A stretch of 8,761 bases of DNA, taken from IMG/VR virus record IMGVR_UViG_2645727563_000007; one strand, 5' to 3'. Shown here piece by piece: positions 1,351 through 8,761 of the stretch (position 1 is its first letter; the number at the start of each line of letters is the position of its first letter). The translations under genes were made by a program, and so were the position numbers. Source of the stretch: a virus (lineage: Duplodnaviria; Heunggongvirae; Uroviricota; Caudoviricetes). Under the pieces are notes generated by a model. It saw only the letters and a program-made list of their open reading frames with translations, did no database searches and was not told where the DNA came from.

Positions 1351-1623
1351 ATGAAGCAATGGCGAGATGATATTAAACGGTTCTTTGCAACTTACTTCAT
1401 GATTAATTACGAAACAGGAATGCTTGAATGGATTGATGGCGGAGAGGTTAAGACAAGAGATGATGCTTACGGTAATCCAATGATTCGTTATGGCACTCGT
1501 GATTATTATGTGAAGTATGTCATCTGGTTTTTGCATCATGAAGTTCAGGCAACTAAAAAGATTATCTTCAGGGATGGTAATAAAAGAAATTGCCACCCAA
1601 ACAATTTACTACAGGAGATTTAA
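1351..1623 (+). CDS. HNH_3-like (homing-endonuclease-type) small protein, 90 aa; canonical catalytic His apparently substituted
   Basis: SD GGAGG (1339-1343); start 2 bp after the previous stop. C-terminal ...YVKYVIWFLHHEVQATKKIIFRDGNKRNCHPNNL resembles the HNH_3 pattern (hR.vW ... vDHiDGN..NN...NL), but the DH preceding DGN reads FR. Confidence 0.4.
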   Translation: MKQWRDDIKRFFATYFMINYETGMLEWIDGGEVKTRDDAYGNPMIRYGTRDYYVKYVIWFLHHEVQATKKIIFRDGNKRNCHPNNLLQEI

Positions 1624-3625: not shown

Positions 3626-3829
3626 ATGATTGATTTAACAGAACGCTATGAACTTATTAAAGCAATTAGCGAGAGATTGAAAGAACAACCCAACAAACCA
3701 AAACGAATCAAATCATCCACCTCTAGGCAAAATAGCAGAATCAGAAGAATCGCTAAATGGTGTCTTGATAAATTACCAAGTGATTGTCAGATTGTCGGTG
3801 AAGATGGTAATTATTATCTGGTTAGGTAA
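3626..3829 (+). CDS. hypothetical small basic protein, 67 aa
   Basis: Strong SD AAGGAGG (3613-3619) 6 nt upstream of ATG 3626. Lys/Arg-rich centre (KPKRIKSSTSRQNSRIRRIAKW) suggests nucleic-acid binding. No family recognised. Confidence 0.5.
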   Translation: MIDLTERYELIKAISERLKEQPNKPKRIKSSTSRQNSRIRRIAKWCLDKLPSDCQIVGEDGNYYLVR

Positions 3830-3926: not shown

Positions 3927-6059
3927 ATGAGCAAATTCACAGTTGATAGTTTTATCGTTGAGCTAGGCTTCAGCGAGAACGTTATTAAGGGCTTGCAAAG
4001 AGTTGAAAAGGCAGCTTTGCAGTCAGCACAAAGAATTGAAAAGAACCTAAATAAAGGTTTCAGGATTAATACAAAGCAGCTTGATAGTAATTTAACGGCT
4101 TCTTTAAAGTCAATGGAAGGGAAGATTAATAAGACCTTTGACCGTCTGGAAGCTAGAGCACGAAGCACAAAAGTTTTCCAGTTTACCACCAGATTTAATG
4201 ACACTGTTAATCCTCCAAAACAACCGAGACAGCCACGAATTAGCGGCAACAGAGCAATCACAGCAGCTTATTCAGCTAATATGACCAAGCTGAAAGGTCT
4301 TAACCCAATTGTCGAGAAATACATCAAATCTCAGTTTTACGGGCTATCTGCTAAAGCTGGGTCAATGGATAATTCAAAATTCAATGAGAAGTTGGCTCAA
4401 TTAAATGCTTCGGTCAGAGAAGCAATTGCTAAAGCCAGAGGCCATACATCCACCAGCATTAACGGTGACAGAGCAGCTAGCAGTCTTGATAATCTGTCTT
4501 TAGCGGCGGTTAAAACAGCAGGTGCATTTATCAGCTTTCAGGCTGTACTATCCGCTTATCAGCGAGTAATGGAAGTTGGCCTTCAACGTGCATCATCGGA
4601 AAGAAGTATTGATTTCGTATTCGGTGACCAAAGTACACAGGTCAAAAAGTTCATTCAAGATTTAACTCAGATTACTGGGATGGACACAACCGAAACACAA
4701 GCACAGTTTGCTTCATTTGGTGCATCTGCAAAGAACACGATGGGTCTTGAAGGGTCAGAAGAGTTATTTAAAAACCTTACAGGTTATGCTCGTTTAATGG
4801 GTCGTTCAGATGAGCAGATTCAAAGAGCATTAACCGCAGTGTCGCAGATGGCTTCTAAGGGTCAGGTGATGTCTGAGGAGCTGAAGGGGCAACTATCTGA
4901 AGCTTTACCGGGTGCTACTCAGGCATTTGCAAAGGCTTTAGGTCTGACTGAAAAACAGCTTTTCGATAAGATGAAAAATGGTGATGTTAAAGCCTCTGAT
5001 GCACTCCCTAAATTTGCTAAAGAACTTGGTTCACAGATTAATTCAAGAGGTGGCTGGAAAGCTATTCAGGACTCTACGCAGACAATGCTAGGGAACTTGA
5101 AGAATACTTGGAACAACTCACTAACGGATATTTTCAAAGGTTCTGAAGATGGTTTGCAGGACTTCACAAGAAGCTTGACCAATCTTTTAAACGCTCTTGG
5201 TGGAACTGGTAAAACATTAGGTGAAAGTTTTGGTAGCTTGATGACTGATATGTCACATGGTGTCGATTCATTGACTGATATTTCTTACAAGGTGAGAGCT
5301 TTCTTTGATGAGGTGACATTAGCTTACCGTTCACTAAATGACACTCAGAAAAAAATTGTTGACGGTTTATCTGATGGGTTAATTGATGGTTTGAAGATGC
5401 TTGCTGTAGCTGTTACTGCTCAAAAGGCTGCAAATGTAGCTGGAGGCTTGTTAAACCTTGCAAATGCTGTTACTTCATTCGGTGATGCTGTTAATAAAGC
5501 TAAAGCTGGCAAGGCTGGTTCTTCAGGTGGTGCGCTAAGTAAAGTCGGTAGAGTTGTCCTTTATGCTGAGTTGGTGAACTTTGCTCTTGATAATTTAAAC
5601 CCTGAAGCTGCTAAGAATCCGAACTTACATCAATCAGGTATTGGCACAGAAACAAACTTCAACCCTGAATACAAAGGCGATTCATCTAAACCAAACCAAA
5701 TTAATGAGGGATGGGCTAAGATTGGTAGTTCTATCGCTGACTGGTTTAATGGTGCAGCTAATAAAATTGCTAACTTCCAAGAGCCAATGAGTAACCTTGT
5801 TAATAACACACAATCAACTCCACCAGCTATCACAGGTGACATGGTTAATAGCAATGCTCAACTTGCAATGACTATTAGTGAACTATCACGCAAGGTAGAC
5901 GCTTTAACAGTAGAAGCTAAGAAGCCCTTGTCAGTTAATATCACTGGTGAAGCAACTGTTAGACCGGATGAACCAGCTTTCTTTAATTTCAGTCAATCGG
6001 CTAATGACCAGTTCACGCAGGATATGCTCTTAAGTTCAAGCTATCCAGAGGAAGAATGA
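3927..6059 (+). CDS. phage tail tape-measure-domain protein, 710 aa
   Basis: SD AAGAGGTG (3911-3918). Central segment ...QMASKGQVMSEELKGQLSEALPGATQAFAKALGLTEKQLFDKMKNGDVKASDALPKFAKELG... matches the conserved tape-measure motif. Predicted helical N-terminal part and Gly/Ala/Ser/Asn-rich C-terminal part are typical of these proteins. Confidence 0.8.
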   Translation: MSKFTVDSFIVELGFSENVIKGLQRVEKAALQSAQRIEKNLNKGFRINTKQLDSNLTASLKSMEGKINKTFDRLEARARSTKVFQFTTRFNDTVNPPKQPRQPRISGNRAITAAYSANMTKLKGLNPIVEKYIKSQFYGLSAKAGSMDNSKFNEKLAQLNASVREAIAKARGHTSTSINGDRAASSLDNLSLAAVKTAGAFISFQAVLSAYQRVMEVGLQRASSERSIDFVFGDQSTQVKKFIQDLTQITGMDTTETQAQFASFGASAKNTMGLEGSEELFKNLTGYARLMGRSDEQIQRALTAVSQMASKGQVMSEELKGQLSEALPGATQAFAKALGLTEKQLFDKMKNGDVKASDALPKFAKELGSQINSRGGWKAIQDSTQTMLGNLKNTWNNSLTDIFKGSEDGLQDFTRSLTNLLNALGGTGKTLGESFGSLMTDMSHGVDSLTDISYKVRAFFDEVTLAYRSLNDTQKKIVDGLSDGLIDGLKMLAVAVTAQKAANVAGGLLNLANAVTSFGDAVNKAKAGKAGSSGGALSKVGRVVLYAELVNFALDNLNPEAAKNPNLHQSGIGTETNFNPEYKGDSSKPNQINEGWAKIGSSIADWFNGAANKIANFQEPMSNLVNNTQSTPPAITGDMVNSNAQLAMTISELSRKVDALTVEAKKPLSVNITGEATVRPDEPAFFNFSQSANDQFTQDMLLSSSYPEEE

Positions 6060-6072
6060 TTTCTTATATATC

Positions 6073-6137
6073 CGTGTGCTACGTGAAATCTTCTGAACAG
6101 ATATACCCACCAAAAATTATTTTTTACGTAGCTCACG
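6073..6137. repeat. imperfect inverted repeat: 16-nt arms (6073-6088 / 6122-6137) around a 33-nt spacer
   Basis: CGTGTGCTACGTGAAA and TTTTACGTAGCTCACG pair at 15 of 16 positions (one U.U mismatch, one G.U); located just downstream of the tape-measure stop codon. Confidence 0.5.
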
Positions 6138-6158
6138 CTTAACAGAGAAAATACATAT

Positions 6159-6208
6159 ATTTCAAAGGCTTGGTTAAAAATGATTAAAATACACTAAGCC
6201 TTTGAAAT
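6159..6208. repeat. perfect 13-bp inverted repeat ATTTCAAAGGCTT / AAGCCTTTGAAAT (extendable to 16 bp), ending 2 nt before the next gene's SD
   Basis: Arms at 6159-6171 and 6196-6208 are exact reverse complements; three further pairs (one G.U) extend the helix; SD AAGGAG at 6211-6216. Confidence 0.55.
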
Positions 6209-6222
6209 CAAAGGAGAATTTA

Positions 6223-6996
6223 ATGATTTACTCTAATCAGATTCGTTACAGTGGCAAAGATGGCATCTATTTCCACTTAAGAGATAATGTAGATGCCTTC
6301 TTAACCTTATCAGCAACTGAAAATATGGAATTTGACAGCCCTATGCAGGTAACTACACAGAACATGCAATCAGGGCAAACCGTTACAGATAATGTGCAAA
6401 GAGCACCCAGAACAATCACTATTAGTGGTGTCGTTGTAGTTGGCTATGAAGGAAGCTTATTATTAACTCGTCAGGGTCAATTAGTAGAAAACTTCATTGA
6501 CACTCTCGAAAGCTGGCGTGACCAGAAGCAAATTATTTCGGTTATCTGTAAGGACGGAATTAAAATTGATGATTCCATTATTACGAGTTTTAAAGCCTCT
6601 AAAGATGTTGGAATTTCAAATGGTCTAAGAATCCAGCTAACTTTTCAGGAAATTAACTTCAAAGCCATTGTAGGGCAAACTGATGTTTCAGCAGCTACTG
6701 GCAAAACTGCTACCACGAATGACGGTGGTGCTACCAGTAAGAAGAATGCGGGTAACGTGACTACTGAACGCAATAACGCACCTATGCTGATGTGTCAGGA
6801 ACTGTACAGTTACTCAGCATCTGAGCTATCTGATGAAGCGCTAAGGGTCCGTAGCAATTGCTCTAAAAATGTCACGGTGAAAGATGGTGTAAGCACCTTC
6901 ACAGCCTCAGCTAATGAGCAGGCTTCAAAAGTGCTTAAGTCGGGTAATGCTTTACGGAAGTTTTCTGTGAATCCGAATAAGAAGGGCACTTATTGA
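6223..6996 (+). CDS. hypothetical protein, 257 aa; by position possibly a distal tail (Dit-like) protein
   Basis: Start set at ATG 6223 with SD AAGGAG (6211-6216) rather than the track's TTG 6202. Immediately follows the tape-measure gene, the usual position of Dit in siphovirus tail modules; sequence looks beta-rich. Function is inferred from position only. Confidence 0.55.
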
Positions 6997-7000
6997 GACA

Positions 7001-7023
7001 TAAAAAGGGGCTTCATAGCCCCT
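7001..7023 (-). terminator. intrinsic terminator for the recombinase gene (stem AGGGGCT / AGCCCCT, 4-nt loop, U5 on the - strand)
   Basis: On the - strand the RNA reads AGGGGCUAUGAAGCCCCUUUUUAUG immediately after the recombinase stop codon (plus 7029-7031). On the + strand the U-tract is poor, so it is mainly unidirectional. Confidence 0.6.
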
Positions 7024-7028
7024 GAAAA

Positions 7029-8549
7029 TTACAGTTGATAAGCGTCAATATCCAGTAGCTCTTTATCAGCAATTTCAAAGATTGGTGACCCATCATTTAG
7101 CGGTAACGGGTTTGTAGGTATGGTGATTTCAGTGTCGTTCTGTAGCGTTACAGTTACCGAATCCTTACCCAATGTAAGCCCTTTTAGATGCTTGGACAAA
7201 ATCAACTGACACTCGACACGACCCACTTTAGTTGTCAGGTCAATATCTTTAAGCTGGGGTAGTTCCTTATCAGTGAGTGAAGCCTTACGCCTCATGTTAT
7301 CAATCGTGGTCTGTAGCTCTGTGCGCTTCTGGTTCAGTTCCTTAAGCTGAATTTTTAGTTCATCAATATCATCCATCTCAAGAAGTAGGGCGGTAGCTTT
7401 CTTGATTCTGGTTGTGACAATTTCAACCTCATGCTGTAGAGATGCAATCTCCCCCTCTGCTTCTCCATCATTCCCCACGTCAATCATTCCTAGAAAATTT
7501 TCAAGCATCCACTTATCAAACGGTTTACGCTTCAACGGAGGAACATCACAGCGACCATCAAGATGGTTATTGCACCGATAAACGCCCTGATACTTATTCT
7601 TAGTCCCTGTAGGGTGAACACTAGCCCCGCACTGACACCTAAACAGACCTTTGAAGATGTTAATCGTTAATGGATTATCACTTGCAGGTGTACGGCCTAT
7701 ACGGTTCTTACCAAGAATCTCTTGAGCTTTATTGAACGTTGAAGCATCTATAGCGGCTTCGTAGTAGTTCGGTATAGCGGGGCGGTCATTACGTTGTGAT
7801 GCTGGTAACGTGCCTATCGTTGTCTCTGACCTTAAGATGGTGCGTACAGAGTGAACACTAAACCCGTTAGCATCTTTACGGCGACTAAACGACTTTATAC
7901 CGTTGCTTTGAAGGTGACGGGCGATGTTATGCAGACTTTCACCACTTAGCAGCAGCTTGAAAATCAGTCTTACAGTCTCAGCGTGTTCATTGCACTTGAA
8001 AGTATCGGGGTCAATCCATCCGGGAACATTTCTTGTAAGACGCTGTTCACCAGCAAGGGCAAGCTTTGCACGTTGTTCCCATTTCTGACTAACACGGAAA
8101 GACTTCTGTTTACTCTCCTGATGCGCTATGTAGCTTTTAACCCGCTGAATGATTGAGATTCCTAAATCATCGGATAGAGCATCCCTTGTGTAGATTAGCC
8201 CATCCTGTAGAGTGTGAATCTCGATACCATGAGCAATAATGCGATTCATCAAGGCTTCTGTTTCAAGATGTTCAAGGCGGCCTATGCGGTCGATAGCTTC
8301 GACTAACAGAACTGTACCTTCTGAAAACTCCCCACTTTCAATACGGGAAAGCATATCCCCAAATTGCCCTGACAAGTGCTTACCTTTGTAACCGGATAGA
8401 CCCTCATCATTGAAAGATGCTACTACTTGAGCATCGCTATTCTTCTTCAACCATTGTTTGAACAGGTCGTTTTGTCGTCTGGTTGAATCTGCACCTTCAG
8501 CGCCTTGTATGGCTGAACTGTACCGAAGGTATGTAATTACGTGTCTCAT
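7029..8549 (-). CDS. large serine recombinase (serine integrase), 506 aa
   Basis: N-terminal resolvase-type catalytic domain (YLRYSSAIQ with the catalytic Ser; DEGLSGYKG; LLVEAIDRIGR), followed by a recombinase domain, a Cys-rich zinc-ribbon (FRCQCGASVHPTG...YRCNNHLDGRCD) and a C-terminal coiled-coil. SD GGGAG (revcomp of 8559-8563) 9 nt upstream of ATG. Confidence 0.9.
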   Translation of the reverse strand: MRHVITYLRYSSAIQGAEGADSTRRQNDLFKQWLKKNSDAQVVASFNDEGLSGYKGKHLSGQFGDMLSRIESGEFSEGTVLLVEAIDRIGRLEHLETEALMNRIIAHGIEIHTLQDGLIYTRDALSDDLGISIIQRVKSYIAHQESKQKSFRVSQKWEQRAKLALAGEQRLTRNVPGWIDPDTFKCNEHAETVRLIFKLLLSGESLHNIARHLQSNGIKSFSRRKDANGFSVHSVRTILRSETTIGTLPASQRNDRPAIPNYYEAAIDASTFNKAQEILGKNRIGRTPASDNPLTINIFKGLFRCQCGASVHPTGTKNKYQGVYRCNNHLDGRCDVPPLKRKPFDKWMLENFLGMIDVGNDGEAEGEIASLQHEVEIVTTRIKKATALLLEMDDIDELKIQLKELNQKRTELQTTIDNMRRKASLTDKELPQLKDIDLTTKVGRVECQLILSKHLKGLTLGKDSVTVTLQNDTEITIPTNPLPLNDGSPIFEIADKELLDIDAYQL

Positions 8550-8639
8550 GGTGATAAACTCCCATGCAATTGATTCTCATTTAAAGATGAACTTATAAAC
8601 GTTATGGCTAATGCTACAATGCCGAATAGCTACAATACA

Positions 8640-8761
8640 ATGACCCTTGATTTACCTCGCCGCTTCCCCTGGCCGACGTTACTTTCGGTCTGCATTCATG
8701 GTGCTGTTGTGGCGGGTCTGCTCTATACCTCGGTACATCAGGTTATTGAACTACCTGCGCC
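8640..8761 (+). CDS. tonB: TonB (energy transducer), N-terminal 40 codons; partial, continues beyond the window
   Basis: Translation MTLDLPRRFPWPTLLSVCIHGAVVAGLLYTSVHQVIELPA is recognised as the N-terminal signal-anchor region of Escherichia-type TonB; GC content is visibly higher than the upstream intergenic DNA. Confidence 0.9.
   Translation, partial: MTLDLPRRFPWPTLLSVCIHGAVVAGLLYTSVHQVIELPA

What the first reader, a model, noticed from the sequence alone, without database searches (positions are those of the whole stretch)
7029..8761. Serine recombinase gene starts 90 bp from tonB: probable right junction of an integrated element
The recombinase is the last element-type gene, is transcribed inward from the junction, and chromosomal tonB begins immediately beyond. 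Serine-integrase elements usually carry their att site next to the recombinase gene, so the 90-bp int-tonB spacer (8550-8639) is the best candidate for a hybrid att site. If so, part of the tonB promoter may now be element-derived. I cannot place the crossover point from this window alone, and the left end of the element is not identifiable here.
Basis: partly seen in the sequence, partly recalled or inferred. Interest (0 to 1): 0.6.

Follow-up and report, generated by a model that had tools for sequence, protein, structure and literature searches.

The report
Serine-integrase island docked in tonB start
A small mobile element uses a large serine recombinase to insert itself four bases into the E. 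coli tonB gene, rebuilding the start codon and replacing the gene's whole promoter with its own DNA.

Summary
A 506-aa large serine recombinase (LSR) gene (7029-8549, minus strand) starts 90 bp from the tonB ATG (8640).

- **Junction:** About 5,200 of 5,426 complete E. coli genomes match the window only from base 8638 onward. 224 carry the int-tonB junction and 229 the reciprocal left junction.
- **Repeat:** attL and attR share the 13-bp repeat CAATGACCCTTGA (8638-8650), which spans the tonB start codon.
- **Crossover:** The rebuilt attP reads CCGAATAG-N13-AC-N13-CTATTCGG. In three diverged relatives, attL and attR agree only over CAATGAC. Both results place the crossover at AC (8643-8644), the first two bases of tonB codon 2.
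- **Consequence:** The whole 90-bp spacer, the tonB promoter region and the ATG are element DNA. The native Fur-regulated promoter stays at attL, about 12 kb away.
- **Breadth:** LSR relatives down to 57% identity sit at the same tonB position in several enterobacterial hosts. The spacer is far more conserved than the int coding sequence.
- **Not settled:** The tonB promoter in the spacer, a Fur-like box, and an in-frame upstream ATG (8604).
- **Element type:** This is not a full prophage. It is an ~11.7-kb island whose tape-measure and Dit-like genes resemble those of virulent Felix O1-like phages, with up to 98.6% DNA identity over ~500 nt. It may be a satellite of those phages.

The parts
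7006..7023 (-). Intrinsic terminator just after the int stop codon
   Evidence: 7-bp GC-rich stem followed by TTTTT on the minus strand.
7029..8549 (-). Large serine recombinase (integrase) gene, 506 aa, transcribed away from the junction
   Evidence: Pfam Resolvase, Recombinase and Zn_ribbon_recom domains. PHROG 95 integrase, E=1.7e-77. N-terminal YLRYSS motif seen in the translation.
8550..8639 (.). 90-bp int-tonB spacer, entirely element-derived. It must hold the expression signals for tonB and probably for int.
   Evidence: Absent from empty sites. It shows 0-4 differences in 90 nt among copies whose adjacent 291 nt of int differ by 29-51 nt.
8560..8564 (-). Shine-Dalgarno of int (GGGAG on the minus strand)
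   Evidence: Read from the sequence. Inference.
8566..8584 (.). Fur-box-like sequence. Weak in this lineage and stronger in relatives.
   Evidence: 12 of 19 matches to the Fur consensus, shuffle p=0.18, the same score as the native tonB box. At the same position in five diverged lineages the score is 13 of 19, with the exact core TGATAATCATT (p about 0.04 each). Not proven.
8570..8599 (+). Candidate tonB promoter 1: TTGATT, 18-nt spacer, TATAAA
   Evidence: The layout (A/T)TGATT-18-TAnnAA-4-ATG recurs in 8 lineages. Crude PWM score 5.8, against 7.4 for the native promoter. It fails the strict consensus scan.
8604..8639 (+). Element-borne ATG and 12 codons in frame with tonB (MANATMPNSYNT), with a second in-frame ATG at 8619
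   Evidence: Translation. An in-frame upstream ATG with no stop codon is kept in 9 lineages, and gene callers extend tonB there. There is no excess of third-codon-position variation. Whether it is translated is unknown.
8612..8620 (+). Candidate tonB promoter 2: extended -10, TGcTACAAT
   Evidence: Best plus-strand PWM hit in the spacer (7.0, against 7.4 for native), but 18% of shuffles reach that score and it is not kept in all lineages.
8622..8629 (.). CCGAATAG, the outer inverted-repeat motif of the attP-derived arm of attR
   Evidence: Its partner CTATTCGG sits at the mirror position in attL. The layout is 8 + 13 + AC + 13 + 8 in five lineages.
8638..8650 (.). 13-bp sequence CAATGACCCTTGA shared by attL, attR and attB
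   Evidence: Also present in Citrobacter.
8643..8644 (.). Inferred central (crossover) dinucleotide AC, the first two bases of tonB codon 2
   Evidence: Dyad axis of the rebuilt attP: 14 of 22 complementary positions, shuffle p=0.015. In L024, L025 and L026, attL and attR are identical only through CAATGAC(C). To the right of that, bases follow attP in attL and host tonB in attR.
8640..8761 (+). tonB 5' end. The gene runs off the window. The ATG and the A of codon 2 are supplied by the element and the rest by the host.
   Evidence: The full-length tonB ORF is intact in occupied genomes.

Best explanation
Positions 7029-8761 hold the attR end of a site-specific integrative element. The element's large serine recombinase recombines an attP of about 50 bp (CCGAATAG-N13-AC-N13-CTATTCGG) with an attB that straddles the tonB start codon. 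Strand exchange occurs at the AC of codon 2 (8643-8644). The attP arm next to int already carries ...CAATGA, so integration rebuilds an intact tonB reading frame. It also cuts tonB off from its native Fur-regulated promoter, which stays at attL and now precedes only a 4-codon ORF (MTLE*) reading into the element. In carriers, tonB must therefore be expressed from the 90-bp element-derived spacer. That spacer is kept under strong constraint beyond what recombinase binding requires.

Shown: the junctions, the empty site, the repeat, the dyad symmetry, the limit on the crossover position, the site's use across lineages and genera, and the spacer conservation. Inferred: the exact cleavage dinucleotide, that the spacer holds the working tonB promoter, and how it is regulated.
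For: - **LSR domains:**
- **Empty sites versus occupied sites:** (224 genomes with attR, 229 with attL, out of 5,426).
- **Junction sequences and the 13-bp repeat:**
- **attP dyad symmetry:** centred on AC, 14 of 22 positions, p=0.015.
- **Crossover position:** natural attL/attR mismatches in three diverged elements restrict it to CAATGAC.
- **Same site elsewhere:** used in Citrobacter and in LSR lineages of 57-72% identity.
- **Spacer conservation:** 0-4 differences in 90 nt, against 10-17% divergence in the adjoining int sequence.
- **Asymmetric arm conservation:** beyond 21 nt from the centre, the int/tonB-side arm keeps 0.79 and 0.60 mean pairwise identity. The other arm falls to 0.37 and 0.30.
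- **Natural test case:** EHEC O111:H- 11128 keeps only a 291-nt int stub plus the spacer in front of an intact tonB. Prophage DNA fills the 14.5 kb upstream. tonB in that lineage cannot use its native promoter.
- **No read-through from the left:** int has its own terminator and converges with the upstream gene.
Against: - No recombination, excision or transcription was measured.
- The strict sigma-70 consensus scan finds no promoter in the spacer. A crude PWM finds candidates no better than 18% of shuffles, and none is conserved in position across all lineages.
- The Fur-like box in the window's own lineage is not above chance.
- No recombination directionality factor was identified.
- A sequence search of the PDB found no solved relative.
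- Some spacer conservation could serve int expression rather than tonB.
Confidence: 0.85

Rival explanations
1. Integration silences or strongly lowers tonB. The benefit to the host or element would be resistance to TonB-dependent phages and colicins, rather than preserved tonB expression.
For: No convincing sigma-70 promoter or Shine-Dalgarno lies upstream of 8640. The native promoter is displaced by about 12 kb.
Against: The tonB ORF is full length and annotated intact in every occupied genome inspected, including 60 listed carriers. The EHEC O111 lineage has fixed the stub-plus-spacer arrangement. The spacer is conserved well beyond the recombinase arms. The native tonB also lacks a clear Shine-Dalgarno.
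Confidence: 0.15
2. The element is a decayed remnant of an ordinary temperate prophage. The recombinase end is a fossil that no longer moves.
For: IS elements interrupt the Dit-like gene or int in several copies. About 60 of 224 carriers lack the int 3' two-thirds. No capsid, terminase or lysis genes are present.
Against: The same ~11.7-kb gene order persists in copies whose int differs by up to 12%. A sister element with a 34%-identical LSR sits in yecE. The same element and site occur in Citrobacter with a host-type tonB. attL and attR are both intact. No phage record matches the element except one tail-gene segment.
Confidence: 0.2
3. The 13-bp direct repeat is a target-site duplication from a transposition-like or illegitimate event. 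The recombinase would be a passenger gene.
For: Direct repeats flank the element.
Against: The repeat is pre-existing tonB sequence present once in empty sites. The same position is used in different genera and by diverged elements. In diverged elements the two copies differ exactly as expected for attP/attB exchange. The site shows the dyad symmetry typical of a serine recombinase. No transposase is present.
Confidence: 0.02

Closest known systems
Large serine recombinase (serine integrase) systems of phages and islands, such as phiC31, Bxb1, A118/comK, SPbeta and TP901-1 (from general knowledge)
   Same: Three-domain LSR. The int gene lies next to attP. The att sites are short imperfect inverted repeats around a non-palindromic central dinucleotide. 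The attB lies inside a host gene.
   Different: The target is the first codons of tonB. The gene is not split and inactivated, as comK or sigK are. The element restores the ATG and swaps the promoter. The closest LSRs in the phage collection are only 31% identical (YbcK type). No solved structure was detectable by sequence.
SXT/R391 ICEs integrating into the 5' part of prfC
   Same: Integration occurs inside the 5' coding portion of a housekeeping gene and restores a functional gene (PMC12210918, citing Hochhut and Waldor 1999). This is the closest functional analogue of what happens at tonB.
   Different: SXT uses a tyrosine recombinase and is a conjugative element of about 100 kb. Here the enzyme is a serine recombinase, the element is 6-13 kb, and the target is tonB.
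PLE of Vibrio cholerae, the satellite of the lytic myovirus ICP1
   Same: A small chromosomal island integrated by a large serine recombinase and linked to a virulent myovirus (PMC7145576, PMC9638900).
   Different: There is no sequence relationship. PLE targets Vibrio cholerae repeats, not tonB. Induction, replication or packaging by a Felix O1-like phage is untested here. This element carries tape-measure and Dit-like tail genes.
Phage phi80 attachment site
   Same: Same chromosomal neighbourhood (kch-yciI-tonB).
   Different: att80 lies between kch and yciI and is used by a tyrosine integrase (PMC11148124). It is a different site with a different mechanism.

Membership tests
Large serine recombinase (serine integrase) | N-terminal resolvase-type catalytic domain with a catalytic serine | tested here: met
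   PF00239, E=4e-16, residues 4-162. The R9-x-S11 motif within YLRYSS is visible in the translation. The catalytic role of that serine is inferred.
Large serine recombinase (serine integrase) | Recombinase domain plus zinc-ribbon domain in a C-terminal extension of more than 300 aa | tested here: met
   PF07508, E=8e-17, and PF13408, E=2e-6. PHROG 95 integrase, E=2e-77.
Large serine recombinase (serine integrase) | attP and attB are short imperfect inverted repeats around a non-palindromic central dinucleotide, and attL and attR are hybrids | tested here: met
   CCGAATAG-N13-AC-N13-CTATTCGG in five lineages. The hybrid junction pattern is seen in L024-L026.
Large serine recombinase (serine integrase) | Demonstrated integration and excision activity, with a directionality factor | not testable with these tools
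   No RDF was identified. Needs an experiment.
Complete temperate prophage | Capsid, portal, terminase, lysis and replication modules | tested here: not met
   The element is about 11.7 kb. Pfam and PHROG recognise only TMP, Dit-like, HNH, Dam, small HTH proteins and recombinases. There is no nucleotide match to any phage record except one tail-gene segment.
Phage satellite (PLE/PICI-like) | Small island with its own integrase, lacking a full virion gene set but carrying genes related to a helper phage | tested here: met
   The Dit-like protein is 76% identical at the amino-acid level to Felixounavirus proteins, with a ~500-nt core 96-98.6% identical at the DNA level. The TMP is 28-31% identical, with conserved termini.
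Phage satellite (PLE/PICI-like) | Induced, replicated and packaged upon helper infection | not testable with these tools
   No data. The only hint of a replication protein is a weak DnaD_N/HTH match in some copies.
5'-end gene-restoring integration (SXT/prfC type) | Crossover inside the 5' coding region, with the element restoring the start of the gene | tested here: met
   The crossover is at codon 2, and the ATG in attR is element-derived.
5'-end gene-restoring integration (SXT/prfC type) | Element supplies a working promoter for the host gene | tested here: inconclusive
   The need for one is shown by the geometry and by the O111 stub. Conservation supports function. No promoter could be placed with confidence.
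Fur-regulated promoter | Fur box overlapping the promoter | tested here: inconclusive
   Window lineage: 12 of 19 (p=0.18). Relatives: 13 of 19 with an exact 11-nt core (p about 0.04) at the same position.

The most novel reading that the evidence does not exclude
A whole clade of serine-integrase islands in Enterobacteriaceae is dedicated to codon 2 of tonB. These islands carry a portable replacement expression cassette for tonB, with their own promoter, a Fur operator, and possibly a new start codon that adds 10-12 N-terminal residues to TonB. The window's member is in addition a PLE-like satellite or decoy island aimed at virulent Felix O1-like phages, with which it exchanges tail-gene DNA.
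Probability: 0.3. Interest if true: 0.8.

Novelty: new member of a known kind. Interest (0 to 1): 0.6.

Why it matters
TonB powers all high-affinity iron and B12 uptake. It is also the entry route for several phages and colicins. In about 4% of complete E. coli genomes, including the EHEC O111 lineage, tonB is no longer driven by its textbook Fur-regulated promoter but by DNA from a mobile element. This could change iron regulation, virulence and phage sensitivity in those strains.

The att site is now defined to the dinucleotide, which gives a new, naturally orthogonal LSR/attB pair in a conserved enterobacterial gene. The element itself is a candidate first satellite of Felix O1-like virulent phages, which are widely used in typing and biocontrol.

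Tried and rejected
- **Fur box in the window's spacer.** It scores 12 of 19, the same as the native tonB box. However, 13-18% of random or shuffled 90-nt windows score as high, so it is kept only as a lead supported by better boxes in relatives.
- **Promoter placement.** The strict promoter scan found nothing. A home-made sigma-70 PWM, with frequencies recalled from memory, recovered the native tonB promoter but gave no significant or conserved hit in the spacer.
- **Leaderless start from the TACAAT at 8631-8636.** Rejected on spacing.
- **Selection on the 12-codon extension as a peptide.** Variable columns fall 5/5/4 over the three codon positions, so nothing supports selection on its sequence.
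- **Small serine recombinase at the left end as an invertible segment.** Rejected. L001 and L005/L014 carry different genes in a variable cargo slot, not an inversion.
- **phi80 att site.** It is a different site.
- **Database and literature searches.** PDB sequence search found no relative. Rfam found nothing in the window. PADLOC found only an orphan methyltransferase. Literature searches on tonB with serine recombinase, on Felixounavirus satellites, and on O111 integrative elements found no description of this element or site.
- **Species-representative genome scan.** It returned only one close relative, in Citrobacter, so more distant lineages came from the protein search instead.

Full report
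**1. The observation**

The window holds a 506-aa ORF on the minus strand at 7029-8549. It carries the Resolvase, Recombinase and Zn_ribbon_recom domains of a large serine recombinase and matches the PHROG integrase family at E=2e-77. It ends at its own intrinsic terminator, 7023-7006. The E. coli tonB reading frame (MTLDLPRRFPWPTLLSV...) starts at 8640.

**2. Is it a junction?**

Yes. I compared 8300-8761 and the whole window with 5,426 complete E. coli genomes.
- Genomes without the recombinase match only from base 8638 onward, at 98-100% identity.
- 224 genomes carry int and tonB contiguously.
- In the occupied genome MDR_56 (L001), the element lies between yciI and tonB. In the empty genome EBJ001 (L002), yciI and tonB are adjacent.

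Reading the three sites directly:
- attB: ...gactt CAATGACCCTTGA tttacc...
- attL: ...gactt CAATGACCCTTGA atgaagtctattcgg...
- attR (window 8638-8650): ...acaata CAATGACCCTTGA tttacc...

A 74-nt attL probe finds the left junction in 229 genomes. The 3' two-thirds of int is present in 172 genomes, nearly complete in 159. About 60 carriers therefore hold truncated copies.

**3. Where the crossover is**

The rebuilt attP reads CCGAATAG-N13-AC-N13-CTATTCGG. Its dyad symmetry is best at that AC: 14 of 22 complementary positions, against 10 for the next best centre. Only 1.5% of shuffles reach 14 anywhere.

Independent evidence comes from diverged elements whose two ends could both be read:

| Locus | attL | attR |
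|---|---|---|
| L024 | CAATGACCATTGA | CAATGACCTTTGA |
| L025 | CAATGACCATTGA | CAATGACCCTTGA |
| L026 | CAATGACTATTGG | CAATGACCCTTGA |

The block identical in both junctions shrinks to CAATGAC. To its right, attL follows the element and attR follows the host tonB codon (Leu CTT or Phe TTT). The exchange therefore lies within window 8638-8644, and its rightmost dinucleotide, AC at 8643-8644, coincides with the dyad axis. AC is non-palindromic, as a serine-integrase centre must be (general knowledge). All five lineages keep the 8+13+2+13+8 layout.

Integration therefore occurs inside the tonB ORF, at codon 2. The ATG in attR is element DNA. The exact cleavage positions remain inferred.

**4. 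Breadth**

- A Citrobacter genome carries an LSR 91% identical at the same position. Its spacer is identical to the window's, and it is followed by Citrobacter-type tonB sequence.
- A search of the large protein collection found relatives at 72%, 69%, 60% and 57-58% identity.
- Every one whose context could be read sits divergently next to tonB at the same nucleotide, in hosts with different tonB and neighbouring genes.
- Their cargo and size differ: about 11.7 kb with TMP and Dit-like genes (the window, L018), and 5.8-7.7 kb with HTH proteins, a small resolvase and DUF4145 (L024-L026).

The LSR-attP module is thus a portable docking unit dedicated to the tonB start.

**5. Consequence for tonB**

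At attL, the native promoter with its Fur box now precedes ATG ACC CTT GAA TGA (MTLE*) and reads into the element. At attR, nothing can read into tonB from the left, because int is on the opposite strand and has its own terminator. tonB expression must therefore start in element-derived DNA.

Three observations argue that it does:
- **tonB stays intact.** It is intact in all carriers inspected.
- **The O111 stub.** EHEC O111:H- 11128 keeps only a 291-nt int stub and the spacer in front of tonB. Prophage and IS DNA fill the 14.5 kb upstream.
- **The spacer is strongly conserved.** It shows 0-4 differences in 90 nt, while the adjoining 291 nt of int differ by 29-51 nt. The conservation is also asymmetric. 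Both att arms are conserved out to 21 nt from the centre. Beyond that, the int/tonB-side arm keeps 0.79 (22-40 nt) and 0.60 (41-60 nt) mean pairwise identity among lineages, whereas the other arm falls to 0.37 and 0.30.

I could not place the promoter.
- The strict scan finds none.
- A crude PWM that recovers the native tonB promoter (score 7.4) gives two candidates: TGcTACAAT at 8612-8620 (7.0) and TTGATT-18-TATAAA at 8570-8599 (5.8).
- Neither candidate is significant against shuffles.

**6. Two leads in the spacer**

*A Fur-like box at 8566-8584.* In the window's lineage it scores 12 of 19, equal to the native box but not above chance. At the same position in five diverged lineages it reads TTGATAATCATTT, which contains an exact 11-nt match (TGATAATCATT) to the core of the Fur consensus. 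That scores 13 of 19 overall, p about 0.04 each. It overlaps the -35-like hexamer of candidate promoter 1.

*An in-frame ATG at 8604, 12 codons upstream of the tonB ATG* (MANATMPNSYNT). An in-frame upstream ATG with no stop codon is present in all nine lineages. Eight of the nine lineages have 12 codons and L023 has 10. In the lineages with the ~90-nt spacer it always lies 4 nt after a TAnnAA hexamer, and automatic gene callers extend tonB accordingly. Variable columns are spread evenly over codon positions (5/5/4), so the peptide sequence itself is not under visible selection. Whether TonB is made with an extended cytoplasmic N-terminus is open.

**7. What the element is**

It is not a complete prophage. 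Across about 11.7 kb it carries:
- a variable left cargo slot (a small serine recombinase or a hypothetical protein);
- a Dam-type methyltransferase;
- small HTH and hypothetical proteins, and an HNH nuclease;
- a 710-aa tape-measure protein and a Dit-like protein;
- the LSR.

It has no capsid, terminase or lysis genes. The same architecture persists in copies with up to 12% int divergence. A sister element has a 34%-identical LSR that splits yecE.

The Dit-like protein is 76% identical to the protein encoded just after the tape-measure gene of Felix O1-like virulent myoviruses (Felixounavirus). Window 6247-6755 is 96-98.6% identical at the DNA level to 212 such phage genomes. The TMP is 28-31% identical, with conserved first and last residues. 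Nothing else in the window matches any phage record. The nearest LSRs in the phage collection are 31% identical.

This pattern resembles PLE of Vibrio cholerae: an island that an LSR integrates and that is tied to a lytic myovirus. It suggests a satellite or a tail-assembly decoy island. Induction and packaging are untested, and IS insertions in the Dit-like gene in two copies show that decay also occurs.

**8. Comparison and novelty**

- **Mechanism.** This is a standard serine-integrase system, and all sequence-level defining features are met.
- **Function.** The closest analogue is SXT/R391 integration into the 5' part of prfC with restoration of the gene (PMC12210918), but that uses a tyrosine recombinase.
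- **Location.** phi80 integrates nearby, between kch and yciI, at a different site.
- **Prior description.** I found no paper describing this element, its tonB site, or a Felixounavirus satellite.

I class the finding as a new member of a known kind. The unproven parts (own Fur-regulated promoter, N-terminal extension of TonB, satellite lifestyle) would raise it to a new variant.

**9. Verdict**

The crossover is at tonB codon 2, not in the spacer. The whole tonB upstream region, including the ATG, is element-derived. Interest: 0.6.

Noticed in passing
window 6202-6996 (core 6247-6755) and 3927-6059: The Dit-like gene has a ~500-nt core that is 96-98.6% identical in DNA to 212 Felix O1-like virulent phage genomes. 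The adjacent 710-aa tape-measure protein is 28-31% identical to theirs, with near-identical first ~25 codons and last 27 nt. This suggests recent DNA exchange with a lytic phage and a satellite or decoy role for the island.
   Followed up: partly
L004 about 5025-17317 (E. coli SCU-387): A sister element has the same gene order, but its LSR is only 34% identical and it splits yecE (DUF72), next to a tyrosine-integrase prophage.
   Followed up: partly
L009 14261-14641 (E. coli O111:H- 11128): Only a 291-nt int stub plus the spacer remains in front of tonB. An IS3 fragment and prophage effector genes lie upstream. This is a fixed, element-derived tonB upstream region in an EHEC lineage.
   Followed up: partly
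L001 16884-18097; L014 10963-12191; L006 7490-9291: IS elements repeatedly interrupt the tail-gene end of the island. IS1203 and an IS3-family element lie at different positions in the Dit-like gene, and two adjacent ORFs (340 and 259 aa, not identified) lie beyond a shortened TMP-position ORF in the Citrobacter copy. In another strain, ISEc10 lies in or beside the recombinase gene.
   Followed up: no
L001 7398-7740 and 7740-8510; L005 2979-4170; L014: The first ~300-350 nt after attL are conserved non-coding DNA (85-95% identity). They are followed by a variable cargo slot holding different small serine recombinases, in either orientation, or a hypothetical protein. This is not an inversion.
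   Followed up: partly
L001 8694-8756; L003 about 5890-5916 and 6083-6145; L005 about 9755-9778: Short non-coding stretches of the island match intergenic regions of Felixounavirus skuden: 24-63 nt at 84-100% identity, at phage positions about 57.0 kb and 65.0-66.0 kb. These could be shared regulatory sequences.
   Followed up: no
window 3800-3818: The best Fur-consensus match in the whole window (15 of 19, GAAGATGGTAATTATTATC) lies inside the small ORF 3626-3829, just upstream of the tape-measure gene.
   Followed up: no
L024, L025, L026 (element spans of 7.7, 7.5 and 5.8 kb): Smaller islands use related LSRs at the same tonB site in other enterobacterial hosts. They carry a small resolvase, HTH proteins and a DUF4145 protein, so the tonB start is a shared docking site for several island types.
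   Followed up: partly
window 1351-1623: A 90-aa HNH-endonuclease-like ORF (Pfam HNH_3, weak) shows a weak match to a homing endonuclease of phage skuden.
   Followed up: no
E. coli genome collection: Thirteen records labelled as plasmids carry the tonB promoter and 5' region. They may be F-prime-like or misassigned replicons.
   Followed up: no
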